Assembly (NCBI GenBank): GCA_043228905.1
Contig: JBHGNT010001149.1
Location: forward strand, 1 to 11,533
DNA: 11,533 nt
Source of the DNA: Azolla caroliniana
Lineage: Eukaryota; Plantae; Polypodiophyta
Reading direction: 5' to 3'
A program made the translations under genes and the position numbers. The number at the start of each line of letters is the position of its first letter. Within the stretch, counting starts at the first letter, position 1. Shown in pieces: positions 1-11,533 of the stretch. Under the pieces are notes generated by a model that worked only from the letters and a program-made list of their open reading frames with translations, had not been told where the DNA came from and searched no databases.

Positions 1-576
1 CATTTGGAGAGGCTACGCAAGATCCAGATGGATCTCTCTACTCACCTTCGTCATGCTCAACACACACAGAAGACTTATGCGGATCGTCATCGGATTCCCT
101 CCTCTTTTGCCATCGGAGATCGGGTATGGCTCTTACGTCGTCACATCAAGACTACTCGACCGTGCGACAAATTGGATTATCGACGACTCGGTGCCTTCCG
201 TATTACGGGTAAGATTAATGATGTCACCTTCTGCCTTGATCTCCCTCCGTAGCTTCAGATACATTTGGTTTTCCATTATTCTCTTCTTGAACCTTATAAA
301 GCAAACACCATTCCCGATCGTGTGACACCACCACCGCCCCTGCTGGAGTTGGACGCCGGCCCGGAGTATGAAGTTGCTGCCATCCTCGATTCCAAACTTG
401 TTCGCAACAAACTTTATTACTTGGTCGATTGGCTCGGTTATAGTTCGAGCGAACGTACTTGGGAACCCGTCGAGCATCTTGCCAATGCACAGGATCTTCT
501 TGCTGATTTCCACCGAAAATATCCGGACAAACCCGGTCCACAATTAGCGCCGACTCGTTCCACTCGTCGTCTTTAA
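1..576 (+). pseudogene. pol: pol C-terminus: integrase tail with GPY/F-type region and chromodomain; premature stop at 250-252
   Basis: FAIGDRVWL...KLDYRRLGAFRI...VFHYSLLEPY, then EYEVAAILDSKLVRNKLYYLVDWLGYSSSERTWEPVEHL. ORFs 4-252 and 265-576 share a frame and are separated by one TAG. Confidence 0.93.
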
Positions 577-587: not shown

Positions 588-596
588 TGTCATGAT

Positions 597-656
597 ATGG
601 CAAGACTCGAACCCATGACCTTATGCTACATGGGTCGAGCTCTTACCATTAGACTA
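597..656 (-). promoter_or_regulatory. tRNA-derived Pol III A/B-box cassette, antisense within LTR A, forming a long hairpin
   Basis: Minus strand reads TAGTCTAATGG (A box, 656-646) ... AAGGTCATGGGTTCGAGTC (variable-loop/T-arm-like, B box 613-604). Arms 597-617 and 629-649 are complementary. Confidence 0.7.
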
Positions 657-716
657 TGAATTGTAATTTGTAGGATATTATTTTCATTTATGTTTTATCA
701 TAGAAAATTGATGTAT

Positions 717-778
717 ATTCCAGATCTCTCTGGAACATTCTAGAAGCTTCAAGATTATTCCTAAAAACACTATAAAAG
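717..778 (+). promoter_or_regulatory. Heat-shock-element array plus TATA box in U3 of LTR A
   Basis: TTCcaGATctCTCtgGAAcaTTCtaGAAgcTTCaaGATtaTTC (718-760) has four perfect alternating nGAAn units at 733-750. TATAAAAG at 771-778. Confidence 0.7.
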
Positions 779-1004
779 GAGGCACAAGGCATTGTTTTGA
801 ACCAAATTGGTTCAACACCAGTCTTAAGCCTCTTAGCCGATTTGTACTTATCTTTCATATAATATAAGAGCTGCTGTCATCATCCTATCTCTCTCTCTAC
901 TCTTCTCACTTTCTCTCTCTCGAGAATCTTACGCAGTCCCGTCCTCTTAGTACTACTCTTCTTAGTACCAATTCCATCTCTACTTTAGTACTATTCCTGA
1001 CACT

Positions 1005-2838
1005 CGGTGGTCAAATTTTATCATTCCGCGTAAAGTACGCATGGGGTATTGCTCCATTTGCGCAAATCTTAAAAGTTTGGCTAAAGGTGCCAAGACATAA
1101 ATGGAAAAGGATATGCGTAAGAAGTTACTACAGGAGCATTATGAGACACAATCGTTAGAACGAAAGAAGGCGATGCATCATAGAGAGAAGTGTTTGAAGA
1201 GGCCCGAACAATACATGTGCTTAATGGTAGATGGCATGGACCAGAAGAAGACGTGCTTGCCGCATATGCAGAGGCTCCCCAAATACATCAATGATGAGTG
1301 CCTTGTTCAAATGCACTTGGTGGGATGCTTGGCTTATAATAGGTCTGTTGAACCTAACGTCTTCATTACATACCCCAATGTTCACAATGACCCTAACCTA
1401 ATAGTTACAGTGATTCACCGAGTTTTGATGTCTTGGGACGAACCGTTTCCCCCTGTTCTATACATTCAATTGGATAATACTACTAGAGAGAACAAAAATT
1501 CAACTATGTTTGGCTATCTAAGTATGTTATTCAACCAAGGATTGTTTAGAAAAGTGAAAGTCCATTTTCTTTTGGTTGGCCACACATGATCATATAAATA
1601 AGATGTTTAGCACATTCTCCAGACAGTTGTCTCGGCATGATGCTTTCACATTACCAAAACTATTTGATGTCATTTGTGATGCATATACACCACACCCAAA
1701 AGTGTTACACTTGAAGGAGGTATATGACTTTACGAGATATATATCAGATGGGTGTGTTGGGAATGTTAAAGTGCTCACCTAATTAAACAATATAAGCTTC
1801 AATCACATTTTTATGATAAAGAAAAATGAAATAAGTGTTGAATCTACGCTTTTGTATGCCAAACAATATTCATCTTCTACAAAATGGGAACTTGAAGGTG
1901 GTTGCCAGTTCTTACTTTGTATGCCAAGTACAATTGTCCATGGAGCTAAACAAATGCCAATTGAGAAGAAAGGGCAGTTGCATAGTGACTTGGTATCGGA
2001 ACGAAAACAATTATGGCTCCAAGCCTTAGAAGAAAAAAGAAATCATATTGAGGCCGCAAAGAAATATGCCGCACAACAAGACACGTCATGGTGGGATGTA
2101 GTTTTTAGTGATTAGAAAGGAATTATAGACAATTGTGTATTTGGTGATAATTGCAATTTGGAAACGCCATTCACATGGTCGCTACAACATGATCATGTAA
2201 ATAAAACTTCGGAGCAACCAGCAAATGCGATTAATCACAATTTGGTCCATCCACAACAAAGAGACATTTATGTGGGACCAAGGATGACCAAAGCAACCGA
2301 AGCTAGATGGCAAGGTAATTTGCAAGAGCTCGCGGCGGGGATGTTGATTGCAATGCCTGTTGATGAGGACTCACATGGCCATCAATTTTGGGTTGGTAAA
2401 ATTCTACAAGTGCTAATGCATGAAATAGAAAACATGATCAAGTCTATAAAAGTTCATTGGTACAACACTAGAAGTGCAAATGCTTTTACAGGTAAGTATA
2501 CGTTGGAGATGATTGAATGCCCAATGACAAGGGGAGGTAGGAAGAGGAAGCGAAACATTCCTAACACCTCAACCCTTGATGTCTCTGATGTGGATATCAT
2601 CATGTATGACTTCACGCTTACAAAAGTCGAACGATTAAGAAAGTCAACAATAGATATAATAAAAGAAAAATTACCAGGTCTACAAGGTGGCTTGAGTCGA
2701 AGGCAAACGAGATCTGCTACATATAATCTAGAGTCAAACCATTTGGTTTATGACGAAGATAATGCATTGATTGGTACATCCGAGGATGATGAGGATGAAT
2801 CGTCATTGTATATTAGTTATAGTAGTGATTTTCCATAA
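1005..2838 (+). pseudogene. DDD-type DNA transposase, Sola-like, 5'-truncated by copy A; about 610 codons with 3 stops and 1 frameshift
   Basis: Frame is open from 1005: IPRKVRMGYCSIC (CxxC) ...H. Then VDGMDQKKT, LYIQLDNTTRENKN and FLLVGHT/HDHINKMFS (frameshift near 1586). ORFs 1576, 1813 and 2158 share one frame, split by TAA 1780 and TAG 2113. NLS-like RKRKR and acidic tail. Superfamily assigned from motif recall only. Confidence 0.68.
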
Positions 2839-3242: not shown

Positions 3243-3343
3243 TGTCAGGAATAGTACTAAAACAGAGAGAGAATCGGTACTAGAGAAGGGAAGTACTATT
3301 AGTACTAAGAGGACTGAGTGCGTAAGACTCACGAAAGAGGAAG
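3243..3343 (-). repeat. Distal (U5) part of copy B 3' LTR
   Basis: TGTCAGGAATAGTACTAAA at 3243 is the exact reverse complement of LTR A 984-1002. Similarity continues through TAGTACTAAGAGGAC..TGCGTAAGA. Confidence 0.92.

Positions 3344-3379
<36 letters not shown>
3344..3379 (-). repeat. (ATCT)9 microsatellite 3' tail of the LINE
   Basis: (AGAT)9 on +, about 55 nt past the inferred ORF2 stop. No such array in LTR A. Confidence 0.88.
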
Positions 3380-3434
3380 TATATTAGCGTCTTCGGAGGT
3401 CAAATATGACCTATGAGACCAAAAATATTACATT

Positions 3435-6400
3435 TCACGTGATACGTGTGAAAGTGAGTAGTGACTCTCGATGTTCAAGAACTTTACTAATGAATGTTGC
3501 AATCAAGAGTGCACATTGTGGTTGTGAGAGGAATTCATGCAAAGATTGGACTCAGTCGAAGAGATGTGGAAAGATGGTCGAATATGATCAAAGGCAGAGC
3601 ATTGTATCAAAGTGTGATACTCAGACTTGCAAACTTGTTTAGGGCAAAGGGTGCATAGCTGACCACTCTCATCACTTGTGCCCCAACGCCCTGTTTCACA
3701 TCGCAATGCATGTGAGCTAATTCTCATGAAAGCAATGGTTCGAATGGCAGATAATGGTATGGGCTCTAACATGTATCGATGTGTACGATTTCCCCGTTCC
3801 GCAAAGAATATGGTTTTGTAGTTAGGTGCAACATGTGTAGTATAATGTGTGAAGCGCGAGCCTCCACATTTGTCCCACGTCATGATACATTGGCGTTGCA
3901 AAAATGCCTCATTTACAGAGGAATCTAATGATGCATCATGAAGCAAGTGTCTCGCATCCCATCTACCAAACCATTTTTTATATCTTGCATCCAACCGGAA
4001 CACAAAATTTTTCTTTTATGCGTCTTTTGGATCTTTTTGCTTGCTTCCCACCCAATTCTAGGAAGTCGATGTGAGGGACTTTTTTGAACCTTAAGCATGT
4101 ATTTAACAACCCTTTCCATGGCCATGATCTCAATGGGAAGCGATCCCGTCTCAAGGAGGAGGGTGTAGGGCGTTTGTTTCTTAACTTGTAGAAACTTTGT
4201 AAGAAAATGTTTTTGGACATTTTTAAACTCTTTCCACATAGATTTAGGGATGCTACCGCCCCATACTTCCACCCCATAGAGAATAACCAATGTCACCAAA
4301 GTGTCGAAAAGATATTTCTTGAGGACCCAAGACTTAATATCTCCAAGATTGCATGTGTTCTCAAATGCATAGTATGCTCGCTTGCCTGCCTCTAAGCGGC
4401 GTGTAGCACATTCATTCCATCTATGATTTGAAGGAACTTCAAGGCTAAGATATTTGAAGCTTTCCACACATTCAAGTGGCTCATTGTTGTACATAATGCA
4501 TGGTTTATCTCTTTTTTGGCTCTTCACAAGCATAATCTTTGTTTTAGAGCTATTGACACTTAATTTAGTATGCATGCAAAAATTTTCCAATGCCTTCATA
4601 AGCTTTTGTGCATCTCCTAAAGTATTTGCAAAAAGTACTACATCATCTGCATATAGCAAAAGCATAATCACAACATTCCCAATGGCAACTTCTTCAACAC
4701 ATTCTTCCTTTGCAAACTTGGTAACCATTTCTTCCAATTCATCAATGCATAGACCGAATAGTGTTGGTGAGAGTGGACATCCTTGCTTAACACCAATAGT
4801 GCTTTTGAAAAAATTTGAAAGTTTATCTCTCATGCACACACAACATATAACCTTCTCATAAATTCGGGAAATTGCAAGCATATATTCACTTGGCACCTCA
4901 AGTTCTCCCATTCGCCTCCAAAGATGCTCACGAGGTACCATATCAAAAGCTTTCTTGAAGTCTACAAAGAAACAATATAAACCTTTACCTCTAAGGCGAC
5001 TTTCCTCCATTAATACTCAAAGGGTGACAAGGTGATCAATGGTGCTATGGTGTTTTTGAAAGCCAGCTTGTCCATAAGCTCTCTTACCACTTTTTTCAGC
5101 CCATACACTTATCTTTGATTCCATTATACATCCAAATAGTTTAGCCATTAATGAGCCAACCATGATGGTTCGATAGTTGTTTACATTATTTATATCTCCA
5201 CCTTTATGTAAAGGTTTGATCCAATTTGTAGTCCAATCGTACGGCATACCATGTTGCAATGCATCATTAAACATATCTCTTATCCATATATGTGCTTCCT
5301 TTCCCGTCCATTTGAGCATTTCAACCTTTATACATTGAAGATCGCTTGCCTTTCGAGACGCCAATTTCTTAAGTCCTATGCATATATCTTCAATTGTAAA
5401 GAAGGGAGGCATTTGTGAAAGAGAACCATAACACATCATCTTTCCGGCAAGAGATAACTCATATAAATTCTTACAATGCATAGACAAGTCATGAAGAGTT
5501 AAGTCACCATAACTCTCAACACGTTTCCCCTTTAGATTTCCCCAAAATTTGGCACATGCATGTGCTTTCTCTTATGTTTGGATAAATTGTTGAGTAACTT
5601 CCCATATTCTTCTCTTTCTTTGAATAAGCCTTTTATACTCATGCAAATGCTTTTGGTAATTCTCTTTATCCATAACTACATCCAAAACCATAAGGCACTT
5701 TCATGCTTCACGACATTCTTTATCAAACCATTTTTTCCTAAGTTTCTTGGTGCATTTCCAAGATGTGCAGCTGGTCGAATTTTTTTTTTTTGTAGAGGAG
5801 AGAATGACTTTCTTGAAAGCTTCCCATTTTCATTCTAGTGTGGCACCATGTTGTATCTTTGTCATTTGTAACATATCCTCAACCATCTTGGAATACATGG
5901 GTGCTCGCTTAAGTTTCATGCTCAAGTGCGGTTGTTTATTATCTTCAATAGCCTTCTCACAATCAAACCTATGCATACATTTGAGATCAATACATAAAGA
6001 CCTATGATCGGATTCCGGTGTCCATTCACCAAGTGAGAATTTATGTATACGATCCAAAATACCTTCGGAAAGTAGCACATAGTCAATCACACTATTTCCG
6101 TTGTGTTTTCTACATGTAAAACCATTAGTGTTGGGCCATAAGGAAATACCATTTGCAATAGCAATCTGGTAGTATTGCACATTTGTAGGAGTAACTTCCC
6201 AAATTGGTCCGGATCTTTTTCATCACTAGAAGAGCGGCTATACATTTGCATATCCTCTTGCATCCTTGAGATATGTGGCATGAAAGATTCTTGTGAATCA
6301 AGTTGGAAACTTCTTCTACGAGCATTCATGTCACCAAAGACAATAACTTCCCCTTTGGATTTGAAATAAGCAATATCATCTTCTAGATTGGCAAATGGTT

Positions 6401-6803
6401 GATCTTTATCCAAACAAGCATAAAAGTTAGAATCTTGATGAGGAATGTAACATCCAACTACAAAAGTGGGCAAATCATTCGGTGTTTCTATTTTGAGTCA
6501 TATGTAGCATTTATGTTCATCATTTTTTATGATTGACACATATTTCTCTATTTCCTTCTTAATCAAACATGCCACCCCTCCTTGTCCTCTTCTTTGTCTT
6601 GGATTTTTCTTCCATATCAAAGAGTGTACATTATAGTTTCCTAAACCTTGAATCCTTTGAGTATCATGCTCCCATGTTTCAACAAGAAGTGTGATGTCCG
6701 AGTCATTGGTGAACTCCTCTATGCCAAATCCTGCATTCCATGGGTATCCATTGCAATTCCAAAAGAATAGTCGTAAAAGGTGTGGGTTAGTCTCATAGAT
6801 CAC
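3435..6803 (-). pseudogene. LINE ORF2: AP endonuclease, reverse transcriptase and C-terminal Cys/His knuckle; several stops and frameshifts
   Basis: APE motifs FWNCNG, LVETW, GGVA, GDMNAR, SVIDY, SDH. RT motifs NYRTIMV, QAGF, FVDFKKAFD, GVKQGCPLSPTLF, LLYADD, FKYL. C-terminus RISSHALRCETGRW..CTLC..EYHTLIQC. Reconstructed stop TGA at 3437-3435 after a terminal frameshift. Confidence 0.93.
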
Positions 6804-6809
6804 GTGTCC

Positions 6810-7681
6810 CTATTTGCCTATATTTCCATCTTTAGGCACATCCTTAACCTTATTTTTCAATCTTTCTTCATATGCTTTACGGCGAGCATTCTGTTGTGAG
6901 ATAGTACGATCTTCACTCACAAAGCATTGCGTACCTTTGAGGTATACCCAACTATTTTCGAGTATGATCCGCCGCTTTGTATCATCTGTCATTGTGCATA
7001 CAATAGGCCTTTCTCTGGAGCGAGTAACACCATGTTTCCCAACTCGGTGTGCCCCATATACATTCACATCTGACATCCCATAATGCATGCTAAATAATTC
7101 ACCAATGGCCTTTCCAAGGGATGCCGTTGTTTCCATACTCTCTTCTTTAATCCCACAGACGACAATATTCTTTGATCATCGTTCACGTTTATTTCAATTC
7201 TCAGACATCTTTGCTTTCTATATTCTTCTCTTGATGCATCACATGCATATTAGATGAGTTTGATAGCACATCCCCACCACATATATCGGCCCATGACTTC
7301 GTTGTACATACATTTTTCATCTCACTTACATCCCGCCTCATCGTGTCCAATTTTTTATTCTTTTAATGCTTCCTTTAACTCAATCTTGTTAAGGCGCTCA
7401 TTTGTTTCGAAAGAAGCTCTTTTACATTCTTGAATCTCTTCTTGAAGTTTTGCAACCACTTGTTTAAGACTTTCATTCTCAATGACAACACTTTGGAGCT
7501 TAGCATTCTCTTTCATTTACGTCCTAATCTCTTCACCTTGCTTGTTTATGGTTTCTTGAAGAGAAATCAAGTGACTCATAAGCATTTTGTCCATTGCATT
7601 GGAATCAAGATTTGTTGGTGATCTCGGCCCATTATCAATCATACCCCCGAACTTTGCGGTGGCTTTACGAGTATTTGCCAT
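6810..7681 (-). pseudogene. LINE ORF1: coiled coil followed by L1-ORF1p-like RRM/CTD region, disrupted
   Basis: ATG at 7681 (MANTRKATAKFG), heptad-rich LQSVVIENESLKQVVAKLQEEIQE, then SKNIVVCGIKEE, AHRVGK, RPIV and FVSEDRT..Q..RRK. TAG at 6812-6810. Confidence 0.8.
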
Positions 7682-7903
7682 TGTAGGGACAAAACCTATG
7701 GGAAGAGAGAGACAGAGAGGGAAGGAGAGAGAATGTACCTTTCACTCGATTTAGGGCTTCAAAATCTACCTTGCGTTTGAGGAACCGTGGGGCAAAGATG
7801 GTTGCGGATGAAAATGCTCATAACTTCTCATCACAGTAACGGAATTCAGTAAATGAACATTGTTTAGAAAGTTCTCTGAAAGAGCTTTCGAATGAGCTAT
7901 AGA

Positions 7904-7906
<3 letters not shown>

Positions 7907-7950
<44 letters not shown>
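7907..7950. repeat. (GA)22 microsatellite in LTR B at the LINE 5' junction
   Basis: Perfect dinucleotide run, homologous to the shorter (TC)n tract in LTR A near 885-920. Confidence 0.95.
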
Positions 7951-7955
<5 letters not shown>

Positions 7956-8057
7956 ATGATAACAGATGATATATTATGTGAAGAGTAAATACAAAATAGT
8001 TATGAGGCGTAAGACTGGCGTTGAACCAATTTGGTTCGAAATGATGCCTTGTGCCTC

Positions 8058-8118
8058 CTTTTATAGTGTTCTCAGGAGTAGTCCTGAAGCTTCTAGAATG
8101 TTCCAAAGAAATCTGGAA
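8058..8118 (-). promoter_or_regulatory. Heat-shock-element array plus TATA box in LTR B
   Basis: GAAgcTTCtaGAAtgTTC at 8086-8103 is identical to the LTR A core. TATAAAAG on - at 8065-8058. Confidence 0.7.
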
Positions 8119-8179
8119 TATACATTAATTTTCTATGGTAAAACTTATATGAAAATAAAATCCTACGTATTACAATAGA

Positions 8180-8232
8180 TAGTGCAATGGTCAAGAGCTC
8201 GACCCATATAACATGGGTTCGAGTCTTGCCAT
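8180..8232 (+). promoter_or_regulatory. tRNA-derived A/B-box hairpin cassette, antisense within LTR B
   Basis: TAGTGCAATGG (8180-8190) and GGTTCGAGTC (8216-8225). An 8-bp deletion relative to copy A falls in the hairpin loop. Confidence 0.65.
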
Positions 8233-8249
8233 ATCATGACATTGTGGCC

Positions 8250-10456: not shown

Positions 10457-10641
10457 TGTCACGGACATAGACGAGGGCAAGGACAAGTAGGCGAGCTCAA
10501 TATTAACAAAGAGAGAAAGATAGATATATAGATAGAGAGAACAAGAGAGAGAGAGAGAGAGGGTAGACAAAAGAGCGACAACTAAATTATGCTTCCAGAA
10601 TTGGTGTTGTTCACCTTGATTGTAATCAAGGTGCACCGAAA

Positions 10642-10749
10642 TATTTATACAAGAATGTGGTGGTATGCATTTAAGCTAGGAAACATCTAGAGAATGCATG
10701 GAAACTTCTAGAGAGTGCATGTTTATGCATTCTCTAGAAGTTTCTTGAA
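10642..10749 (-). promoter_or_regulatory. HSE-like repeats plus TATA box in LTR C
   Basis: GAAgtTTCttGAA at 10737-10749 and GAAacTTCtaGAG at 10701-10713. TATAAATA on - at about 10649-10642. Confidence 0.6.
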
Positions 10750-10808
10750 AGTTTTACTGATTAACTTACAATGTAAAAAGTTGAAATTTATTCAATACAT
10801 AATGCATA

Positions 10809-10883
10809 GATGGAATGTAGCTCAATTGGTAAGGTTGCCCAATAAGACCAAGAGGTCATGGGTTCAACCTCCTACATTCCATC
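10809..10883 (+). promoter_or_regulatory. tRNA-like A/B-box cassette, antisense within LTR C; not a functional tRNA
   Basis: Acceptor-like TGGAATG/CATTCCA spanning 71 nt. A box TAGCTCAATTGG (10818-10829). GAGGTCATGGGTTCAA with B box from 10861. The anticodon arm does not pair. Confidence 0.75.
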
Positions 10884-10895
10884 GTGTCTATGAAA

Positions 10896-10908: not shown

Positions 10909-11533
10909 AAGGTTTCCTCTTGAGACTCACGGTTGGCTTATGTGGGTATCGTCGATGAAAATCACGAATGGCCTCCAAAATGGGGTACCTTTTCCATAAG
11001 ACCAAATATTGGAGCTGTCAACGATGATATCGAGAGTCGAGGATTTGGTCAACCTCATATTCTTCGCCCGTCGACAATTCCACAAGTGGCAGTGGAGGAG
11101 GGTGTCGTCCTGGAATTCGAGAAGGATGGTAGAGTTTGAGGAGGGAAACATGAAAAAAATCGTGAATCCTGAATGTTGGTGGAAGTGCTAACCGGAAGGC
11201 GACTGGGTTGATTCGTTCGATGATATGAAAGGGGCGTAGTCTTTTGTAGTCCAATTTTGCAGAAGGACGTGTGGTGGCGATGTGACGATGTAACAGCCAA
11301 ACCATGTCCCCGATTGCAAATGTCGGTGGAGCTAAACGATATCGGTCCGCTTGATCTTTATAGTGGTCACCAGCAACACGGAGCTCCAAGGAGAGGTCAC
11401 GATGGACATTGTGTAAAGCGCAGGCACGCGTGTCTACCGAAGGATTGACTGAAGTTGTAGGTATGGAAATGCTGAAACGAGGTTGAAATACATAGTTTGC
11501 AAAGAAGGGGGAAACCTTAGTCGAAGCATGGAT
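10907..11533 (-). pseudogene. pol: pol C-terminus of copy C: integrase tail and partly deleted chromodomain
   Basis: FAIGDMVWL..KLDYKRLRPF..FHVSLLKLY..EEYEVDQILDSRYHR*QLQYLVLWKRYPILEAIRDFHRRYPHKP, with stop TAG at 10909-10907. Confidence 0.9.

What the first reader, a model, noticed from the sequence alone, without database searches (positions are those of the whole stretch)
10809..10883. tRNA-derived Pol III cassette at the U3 edge of LTRs in two different protein-coding chromovirus families
Seen: all three LTRs carry A- and B-box-like motifs at tRNA-like spacing within their first about 90 bp, always antisense to the element (A 656-604, B 8180-8225, C 10818-10871). LTRs A and C are otherwise not alignable by eye, yet share AGGTCATGGGTTC exactly. 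C keeps a 7-bp acceptor-like stem spanning 71 nt. Known: small-RNA-gene-derived LTR segments occur in non-autonomous elements such as Cassandra TRIMs (5S rRNA). tRNA genes and B boxes bind TFIIIC and can act as chromatin barriers, and Ty3 targets Pol III genes. Inference: the fixed position and orientation across families suggest a maintained module. It could be a TFIIIC-bound insulator shielding the LTR promoter in heterochromatin, or an outward-firing Pol III promoter producing antisense RNA over the PPT and chromodomain (first T4 on that strand at 519-516 for A and 10990-10993 for C). I cannot check whether this is already described for Tcn1-like elements.
Basis: partly seen in the sequence, partly recalled or inferred. 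Interest (0 to 1): 0.85.

Follow-up and report, generated by a model that had tools for sequence, protein, structure and literature searches.

The report
tRNA promoter built into retrotransposon ends
At the outer edge of their terminal repeats, a group of protein-coding jumping genes, probably from a moss or another non-seed plant, carries a back-to-front worn tRNA gene whose promoter boxes are kept across very different families, which likely lets the element recruit the tRNA transcription machinery as a shield against silencing.

Summary
Observation confirmed and extended. All three LTRs in the window (all 3' LTRs of Tcn1-type chromoviruses) carry antisense tRNA A and B boxes at the U3 edge. 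A search anchored on the integrase/chromodomain, not on the motif, gave 66 scorable LTR starts: 19 carry the cassette, 47 do not. Carriers span about 8 families with 45-76% integrase-end identity; six carrier-clade contigs hold an unbroken ~1200-aa pol. Across families the B box, the D-loop GG, the variable loop, the box spacing and an A+T-rich zone upstream are kept. Acceptor and anticodon stems are lost. The elements self-prime, so no tRNA primer is involved. It is not a tRNA gene, a one-off SINE insertion or a Helenus TRIM: those are non-coding with sense tRNA. Best reading: a maintained TFIIIC/TFIIIB (Pol III) promoter facing outward, likely a chromatin barrier for the element's Pol II promoter. 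Binding, transcription and barrier activity are untested. New: the window's two families have also reshaped the cassette into strong hairpins, which most other families lack. Not found in 9 literature searches.

The parts
10811..10882 (+). tRNA-like cassette of LTR C (antisense to element C), tRNA positions 1-73
   Evidence: Rfam RF00005 18.6 bits, below gathering score; box scan 1 of 17 mismatches, 0 of 60 shuffles
10818..10829 (+). A box of cassette C
10861..10871 (+). B box of cassette C; the window copy departs from the consensus at position 61 (10870), where most laid contigs have the consensus base
10809..10883 (.). 12-bp inverted repeat closing a long hairpin over cassette C
   Evidence: fold z -3.9 and -4.1 on the two strands, 0 of 200 shuffles
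10766..10805 (+). A+T-rich zone upstream of cassette C (80% A+T), candidate TFIIIB landing site
10457..10895 (-). LTR C: 3' LTR of element C, nested in the RT region of element B; Pol II TATA at 10649-10642
   Evidence: follows PPT 10908-10899
11018..11533 (-). integrase C-terminus (Tf2-1 SH3) and start of the chromodomain of element C; the frame is broken after this
   Evidence: Pfam PF24626 E 1.7e-19
588..1002 (+). LTR A: 3' LTR (TG...CA); PPT 575-584, Pol II TATA 771-777, self-primer motif 809-819
592..663 (-). tRNA-like cassette of LTR A (A box 656-646, B box 613-603); also a long hairpin
   Evidence: 0 of 17 mismatches, 0 of 60 shuffles; fold z -5.7 and -4.6
669..708 (-). A+T-rich zone upstream of cassette A (82% A+T)
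253..576 (+). chromodomain end of pol of element A
   Evidence: Pfam Chromo E 1.6e-14
7906..8241 (-). LTR B, 5' part (same family as A), cut in its CT repeat by a LINE
   Evidence: 90% to the L001 LTR
3243..3382 (-). LTR B, 3' remainder beyond the LINE
   Evidence: 77% to L001 LTR positions 296-447
8173..8237 (+). cassette of LTR B (A box 8180-8190, B box 8216-8226), with an 8-nt deletion of the variable loop
8245..10456 (-). broken pol of element B (RT end, RNase H, integrase, SH3, chromodomain)
   Evidence: Pfam

Best explanation
The outer (U3) edge of these self-priming, protein-coding chromovirus LTRs holds a back-to-front tRNA-derived A box, B box and A+T-rich upstream zone that is kept across divergent families and likely binds TFIIIC/TFIIIB as an outward-facing Pol III promoter, which would act as a chromatin barrier for the element's own Pol II promoter 100-200 bp further in. 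Shown: anatomy, position, orientation, spread across about 8 coding families, loss of the tRNA cloverleaf ends, retention of the boxes, and self-priming. Inferred: capture of a tRNA gene or tRNA-SINE head into an ancestral LTR and copying into both LTRs; purifying selection at DNA level; TFIIIC then TFIIIB loading. Also inferred: a nucleosome-poor barrier between the flanking heterochromatin, where chromodomain integrases are thought to insert, and the Pol II TATA/start. Short Pol III transcripts may be a by-product.
For: Motif-blind sampling: 19 of 66 scorable LTR starts plus 3 of 3 window LTRs have antisense boxes with at most 3 of 17 mismatches, spacing 43-44 in 18 of 22; the other 47 have at least 4 mismatches or no box pair. 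In 10 family representatives G19, A44, T47, G53, T54, T55 and A58 are 10 of 10. Mean column conservation: variable loop 0.94, B box 0.82, A box 0.70, anticodon arm 0.57, acceptor 0.50-0.51. Inner U3 between families is at shuffle level (0.49 vs 0.49, 28 pairs). The B box sits 15-48 nt from the LTR edge with unrelated spacers, so it is not integrase-end hitchhiking. A+T peaks at 0.82-0.93 from -40 to -11 and exceeds the rest of U3 in 12 of 12 rows; no such peak in 41 cassette-less LTRs, 0.56 vs 0.57. This matches the TFIIIB zone of plant tRNA genes (PMC3082873, PMC13578239 passages). Within families, listed variants avoid the boxes: family A 3 substitution sites in 588-663 vs 14 in 664-765; family C none in the A box and one in the B box, toward consensus (16 rows hidden in each). 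Intact pol ORFs of 1183-1235 aa in L001, L004, L007, L011, L013, L015.
Against: No occupancy, RNA or reporter data. TFIIIC barriers are established in yeast and mammals (reference titles seen; otherwise recalled), and I saw no demonstration in plants. 47 related chromodomain LTRs, Selaginella SM-Tcn1 and the first 400 nt of P. patens RLG1 (both by eye) do without it, so it is not needed for this lifestyle. The variable loop, not a known TFIIIC contact, is the best-kept part. Inner D- and T-stem pairs are largely kept (11-24 paired in 20 of 21 rows, with C-G/U-A/U-G types), and both window families form strong hairpins; these point to some RNA-level constraint. Whole-core identity between families (0.60) is barely above that of the A+T-rich flank (0.58). 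All 19 carrier loci share one id prefix and may come from one campaign and host group.
Confidence: 0.45

Rival explanations
1. The cassette is a working outward Pol III promoter whose RNA is the point: a 75-180 nt antisense or tRNA-elbow-like/hairpin RNA that tunes silencing or copy number, over the PPT and chromodomain at 3' LTRs and into host DNA at 5' LTRs.
For: Full promoter anatomy including the upstream A+T zone. Inner D and T stems are kept, with G-U pairs that work only on the Pol III strand; covariation score reached by 8 of 500 shuffles. A T4 terminator lies inside the LTR in 5 of 10 family representatives.
Against: T4 excess is not significant (shuffle mean 2.6, p 0.065). Transcript length would differ widely (first T4 about 150, 180 and 850 nt from the cassette start for A, C and B). 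G-U pairs can arise from C-to-T decay. The 8 of 500 figure is within what relatedness alone gives, by the tool's own calibration.
Confidence: 0.2
2. What is selected is a hairpin at the U3 tip next to the PPT, used in reverse transcription or RNA packaging; the tRNA relic was only raw material.
For: W_A, W_B, L001 and W_C fold with z -4.0 to -7.0 on both strands. Pairing of positions 22-36 with 48-63 holds in 72.8% of cells vs 25-47% when slid, and explains the kept ATG/CAT. U3 stem-loops near the PPT are described for Sire and HIV (PMC3601003 passage).
Against: Only 4 of 20 rows reach z below -2.5 on the element strand (5 of 20 on the tRNA strand), vs 2 of 45 cassette-less LTRs. L003, L009/L011/L014, L015 and L027 keep boxes without a hairpin. 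Covariation is not above shuffles (52 of 500), the structure was drawn from family A, and A and C use different pairing registers. It does not explain the A box, the spacing or the A+T zone.
Confidence: 0.13
3. Neutral passenger: an old tRNA-SINE head fixed in an ancestral LTR, or passed between families by U3-tip recombination, and now decaying.
For: Single copies carry box lesions (LTR B deletion, L005, L009, L012). Many relatives lack it. Scan note e1-9852194 reads a similar fungal case as a passenger (unchecked).
Against: Box positions are invariant across families with 45-76% integrase-end identity whose inner U3 is at shuffle level, while the stretches between and after the boxes have diverged. 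This fits neither neutral decay nor recent copying.
Confidence: 0.12
4. The element's RNA carries the complement of tRNA D and T arms in U3 in order to anneal a host tRNA, as in the Ty3 3' PBS or the tRNA-like stretch in HIV-1 U3-R.
For: Same strand logic and place: in Ty3 the T and D arms of tRNAi-Met pair with U3 (PMC5371799 passages); the HIV case was seen only as a citation.
Against: These elements have no tRNA PBS. The sequence after the LTR pairs with the transcript 5' end, with compensatory change between families (12 bp in L004, L011, L015; 9 bp in L027), so no primer tRNA is there to bridge. Families differ inside the A-box arm, so no single tRNA is complemented.
Confidence: 0.05
5. 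The cassette is a landing pad that attracts Pol III-targeting retrotransposons, or a decoy, as scan note e1-10420520 proposes for a fungal genome.
For: Only that unchecked note.
Against: The nested insertions in this window lie elsewhere (C in B's RT, the LINE in B's CT repeat). A landing pad would not explain selection on the carrier.
Confidence: 0.05

Closest known systems
Helenus / TRIMp3 (Kojima 2024, PMC10886601; text parts 1-4 of 6 and supplement passages read), with Cassandra and Ajax
   Same: tRNA-derived sequence inside an LTR; A and B boxes kept while the cloverleaf decays; proposed origin from a SINE or tRNA inserted in an LTR; the same 13-mer occurs 4 times in the Helenus supplement.
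   Different: Helenus is non-coding and 311-1263 bp long, with a tRNA PBS. In the supplement LTRs seen, its tRNA part is sense and near the LTR 3' end, and it is proposed to drive the element's own transcript. Here the elements encode gag-pol, self-prime, keep a Pol II TATA, and the cassette is antisense at the U3 edge. The paper argues that autonomous partners should not share such LTR sequence, but notes that 'not a few' Repbase LTRs resemble tRNA parts and followed up only TRIMs.
Tcn1 chromoviruses: SM-Tcn1 of Selaginella and RLG1 of Physcomitrium patens (PMC2864245, PMC6317226, PMC7466625)
   Same: Chromodomain integrase, overlapping gag/pol, self-priming. By eye, SM-Tcn1 shares the pol motifs, the R-region motif and the self-primer/PBS pair of L004. 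LTR C's 3' end resembles the inverted start of RLG1.
   Different: No cassette seen by eye at the U3 edge of SM-Tcn1 (tandem repeats instead) or in the first 400 nt of the RLG1 transcript. None of the passages read mentions a Pol III module.
Ty3 bipartite PBS and the tRNA(Lys3)-like sequence in HIV-1 U3-R
   Same: tRNA-complementary sequence in U3 of the genomic RNA of a coding element.
   Different: Those pair with the primer tRNA. These elements use no tRNA primer and keep promoter-type features (box spacing, upstream A+T zone).
tDNA/TFIIIC chromatin barriers and B2 SINE boundaries (titles and listing only)
   Same: A/B-box DNA at a boundary between silent and active chromatin, as proposed here.
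   Different: Known cases are host loci or SINEs in yeast and mammals, not a built-in LTR module. Activity is untested here.

Membership tests
Tcn1 chromovirus (Ty3/gypsy) | chromodomain at the integrase C-terminus, followed by PPT and LTR | tested here: met
   Pfam Chromo and SH3_Tf2-1 for A and B; SH3 plus a broken chromodomain start for C
Tcn1 chromovirus (Ty3/gypsy) | self-priming instead of a tRNA PBS | tested here: met
   12-bp PBS/R complement with covariation in L004, L011, L015 and 9 bp in L027, of 11 loci examined; not testable for family C
Tcn1 chromovirus (Ty3/gypsy) | phylogenetic placement with named Tcn1 references (RT/RH/INT) | tested here: inconclusive
   trees held no named reference; likeness to SM-Tcn1 is by eye only
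Helenus / TRIMp3 | non-autonomous, short (up to about 1.3 kb), no coding sequence | tested here: not met
   gag 414-431 aa and pol about 1200 aa in carrier contigs
Helenus / TRIMp3 | tRNA-like sequence in the LTR with boxes kept and cloverleaf decayed | tested here: met
Helenus / TRIMp3 | tRNA part in sense orientation so that Pol III can transcribe the element; tRNA PBS | tested here: not met
   antisense in 22 of 22 carriers; self-priming. A weaker sense-strand box pair scores above shuffles in L002, L008, L013, L066
functional tRNA gene | cloverleaf with acceptor and anticodon stems; ARAGORN/Rfam call | tested here: not met
   ARAGORN 0 in the window and in 94 of 94 loci; Rfam below gathering; acceptor 47% and anticodon 37% paired
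tRNA-SINE insertion | few copies, own target-site duplication and tail, occurs outside LTRs | tested here: not met
   fixed at the LTR edge in about 8 families; profile R1 over 95 sources hits only LTR edges at E below 1e-5 except one relic in L040; 66 contigs with diverse flanks at LTR A's edge. A host SINE as source could not be searched (no genome)
Pol III type 2 promoter / TFIIIC barrier | A and B boxes at tRNA spacing with an A+T-rich upstream zone | tested here: met
Pol III type 2 promoter / TFIIIC barrier | TFIIIC/TFIIIB occupancy, transcription, barrier activity | not testable with these tools
   needs ChIP, stranded short-RNA reads and reporters

The most novel reading that the evidence does not exclude
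Autonomous heterochromatin-targeting chromoviruses of a non-seed plant lineage have domesticated a tRNA-gene promoter as a portable TFIIIC insulator at both ends of every copy, gaining it twice or passing it between two Tcn1 sub-lineages in one host. They thereby seed very many Pol III factor sites and barriers through plant heterochromatin.
Probability: 0.3. Interest if true: 0.85.

Novelty: new variant of a known kind. Interest (0 to 1): 0.66.

Why it matters
Small-RNA-derived LTR segments are described for short non-coding TRIMs, where they drive the element's own transcript. Here the same kind of module sits backwards in full-length coding elements, where it cannot do that job, yet it is conserved. 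That offers a concrete answer to how chromodomain retrotransposons that insert into heterochromatin stay expressible, and a natural test system for whether tRNA-type boxes act as chromatin barriers in plants. High-copy LTRs with intact boxes could also redistribute TFIIIC genome-wide and add tRNA-pseudogene calls in such genomes.

Tried and rejected
No whole genome is held, so genome-wide copy counts, 5'/3' LTR pairs, host tRNA genes and host SINEs could not be examined. Viral collection scans found no relatives. Blast of two cassettes against phage records gave only chance-level hits (E 3-10; some 21-22 nt pieces on tRNA-Met/Thr), so the source isotype is undetermined. Rfam on 18 carrier loci gave no tRNA hit. 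The sequencing-run search listed no RNA holder. Two guessed-RNA contig sets laid on LTR A gave 6 and 3 pieces; contigs show neither strand nor start, so this says nothing on expression. Contig depth was not used as copy number, although it is far higher on the LTRs than on the adjacent coding end, which may mean many solo LTRs or derivatives; an intact family C element was not seen. Rejected: that the U3 B box is a second PBS pairing with the self-primer, because in L004 the self-primer changes and the U3 box does not follow. One origin versus two is unresolved: in the 37-row tree 10 of 11 carriers form a clade (95/84) and W_C lies outside in all 200 bootstrap trees, but the AU test does not reject one clade (p 0.42; the 97-row quick tree also left L027 outside). 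Cluster look-up gave no organism names. Piekna-Przybylska 2010 is not held. Scan look-ups by sequence found nothing, nor did one by words. Rows dropped: 25 of 94 loci had no PPT/LTR start found and 3 were too short. L004 was left out of alignment A3 as a near-copy of L003.

Full report
Setting. The window is a nest of transposon remains. It holds three 3' LTRs of chromodomain Ty3/gypsy elements, each following an integrase SH3/chromodomain end and a PPT. LTR A is at 588-1002 (+). LTR B runs 8241-7906 (-), with its remainder at 3382-3243 because a LINE inserted in its CT repeat. LTR C runs 10895-10457 (-), nested in B's RT region. A and B are one family; C's integrase end is only 47% identical to family A. 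No genome is held. The host is inferred to be a moss or another non-seed plant from the distribution of Tcn1 elements (PMC6317226 and PMC2864245 passages); it was not identified.

Observation. A has perfect A and B boxes (0 of 17 mismatches against a recalled consensus) 43 nt apart. C has 1 mismatch at the same spacing. B has both boxes but an 8-nt deletion between them. All face out of the element, and 0 of 60 shuffles match as well for each. They are not tRNA genes: ARAGORN finds none, and Rfam gives C only 18.6 bits against 29 and nothing for A. The exact 13-mer shared by A and C also stands 4 times in the Helenus supplement, so it marks tRNA ancestry, not a shared capture.

Spread. I searched with an alignment of the SH3-chromodomain protein, so selection was blind to the motif, and got 94 loci (the metagenome scan kept the best 80 of at least 597). 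69 had a PPT and LTR start and 66 were long enough to score. 19 carry antisense boxes with at most 3 mismatches (0 of 60 shuffles in 17, 1 and 2 of 60 in two). 47 have 4 or more mismatches or no box pair; one of them, L071, scored 0 of 60 at 4 mismatches. Spacing is 43-44 in 18 of 22 carriers, window included. The B box lies 15-48 nt from the edge behind unrelated spacers. Carriers fall into about 8 families with 45-76% identity at the integrase end. Six contigs of the carrier clade hold an unbroken pol of 1183-1235 aa ending at the PPT (L007's LTR is too short to score), and L001 and L013 also hold gag. A profile of the cassette hit, over 524 kb, only these LTR edges, a second LTR in L050 and one relic in L040 at E below 1e-5. 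Family C occurs in 4 of 4 runs laid, from 4 studies and 4 coded organisms. Most laid depth has the consensus base at B-box position 61 and the TG start, where the window copy deviates. At LTR A's edge, 66 contigs of one run continue into diverse flanks, as expected for many independent insertions. Caveat: the 19 loci share one id prefix and may reflect one host group, and the 47 negatives include near-copies of a few families.

What is conserved. In 10 family representatives, G19, A44, T47, G53, T54, T55 and A58 are invariant. Mean column conservation is 0.94 for the variable loop, 0.82 for the B box, 0.70 for the A box, 0.57 for the anticodon arm and 0.50-0.51 for the acceptor strands. Inner U3 is at shuffle level between families (0.49), although whole-core identity (0.60) is only slightly above the A+T-rich flank (0.58). 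A+T content peaks at 0.82-0.93 from -40 to -11 of the tRNA start and exceeds the rest of U3 in 12 of 12 rows, with no peak in 41 cassette-less LTRs. Plant tRNA genes load TFIIIB on such a zone (PMC3082873, PMC13578239 passages). On the cloverleaf, acceptor (47%) and anticodon (37%) stems are gone, while the inner three pairs of the D and T stems are mostly kept (13-20 of 21 rows each). Within families, the listed variants avoid the boxes (16 rows hidden in each table, and differences are counted against the window copy).

A complication. In both window families the cassette is also a strong hairpin on both strands (z -3.9 to -5.7, 0 of 200 shuffles). In A the stretch after the D arm has become an inverted copy of the B-box region. 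In C the 'acceptor stem' is part of a 12-bp perfect inverted repeat. Only 4 of 20 rows reach z below -2.5 on the element strand, covariation is not above shuffles, and several families keep boxes without a hairpin. So the boxes, not the hairpin, are the common feature.

Priming. The sequence after the LTR pairs with the start of R, with compensatory change between families (L004, L011, L015 12 bp; L027 9 bp; of 11 loci examined). This is Tf1-type self-priming, as predicted for 83% of 1500 Tcn1 elements. It argues against a Ty3-like second PBS in U3 (PMC5371799 passages). A Pol II TATA lies about 35-40 nt before the self-primer and 100-200 nt inside the cassette, so the two promoters face away from each other.

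Origin. Ten of 11 carriers form a clade (95/84) with no scored cassette-less member. W_C lies outside in all 200 bootstrap trees, but one clade is not rejected (AU p 0.42). By eye, SM-Tcn1 resembles the main clade in pol and self-primer yet has no cassette, and the first 400 nt of P. patens RLG1, whose start resembles LTR C's inverted end, has none either. Gain within one host lineage, once with transfer or twice, is therefore plausible but not shown.

Mechanism. I commit to a maintained, outward-facing TFIIIC/TFIIIB site that likely acts as a barrier for the element's Pol II promoter (0.45). That it is a selected Pol III-type promoter of some use I put near 0.7. RLG1's chromodomain is proposed to target heterochromatin (PMC7466625 passage), and the cassette at a 5' LTR sits between the flank and the TATA. 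Rivals: a functional short Pol III RNA (0.2; internal T4 in 5 of 10 families, p 0.065), a PPT-proximal hairpin (0.13), a passenger (0.12), tRNA annealing (0.05) and a landing pad (0.05). Binding, transcription and barrier activity are all untested.

Known versus new. Closest is Helenus/TRIMp3 (PMC10886601, text parts 1-4 of 6; supplement passages), which fails membership on autonomy, orientation and priming. Nine literature searches (listings read, plus passages of PMC13570524, PMC3601003, PMC6468702, PMC13437025) showed no report of such a module in coding chromoviruses. Subscription journals and Repbase were not searchable, and Kojima notes unexamined tRNA-like LTRs in Repbase. Two unchecked notes of this scan describe tRNA boxes in fungal LTRs; they are leads to recurrence, not support. 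Verdict: real, a new variant of a known kind, interest 0.66.

Noticed in passing
window 809-819 (+); same place in L001, L010, L014, L013, L015, L019, L066: The self-primer at the start of R reads as a sense-strand B-box match in 7 of 10 family representatives; in L003/L004 it has changed together with the PBS, so it is probably constrained by priming, not by TFIIIC.
   Followed up: partly
L013, L008, L066, L002, first 120 nt of the LTR: The inverted copy of the B-box region creates a second, weaker A/B-box pair on the element's own strand (1-3 mismatches, 0 of 100 shuffles), making the cassette nearly symmetric.
   Followed up: partly
L040:12472-12559 (-): Degenerate tRNA-like stretch 5 kb from a cassette-less element, found by profile R1 (E 1.8e-6); a tRNA pseudogene, a SINE head or another LTR edge.
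   Followed up: partly
window 3383-7905 (-): A broken LINE (endonuclease and RT; Pfam) inserted in the CT microsatellite of LTR B, with a short-repeat tail at about 3344-3375.
   Followed up: partly
window 1101-2838 (+): Broken ORFs with DUF7869 between LTR A and the end of LTR B, probably a DNA-transposon remnant.
   Followed up: no
window 10691-10753 and 721-750; L003 LTR 130-230: TCTAGA-centred palindromes or tandem repeats in inner U3 recur in several carrier families.
   Followed up: no
runs X1 and X21 laid on window 10815-10869 and 597-664: Single contigs show the cassette duplicated head to tail (tables 5c and 8).
   Followed up: no
PMC2864245 supplement, SM-Tcn1: The paper found no priming site, but by eye the sequence after its 5' LTR pairs with R just as in L004, so it appears to self-prime.
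   Followed up: partly
L081-L094: Fourteen contigs in prokaryotic genome records encode chromovirus-like integrase ends, probably eukaryotic contamination.
   Followed up: no
L045, L046, L064, L071 LTR starts: A faint antisense B-box-like word 6-11 nt from the edge in an otherwise cassette-less family (4-5 mismatches); possibly chance.
   Followed up: no
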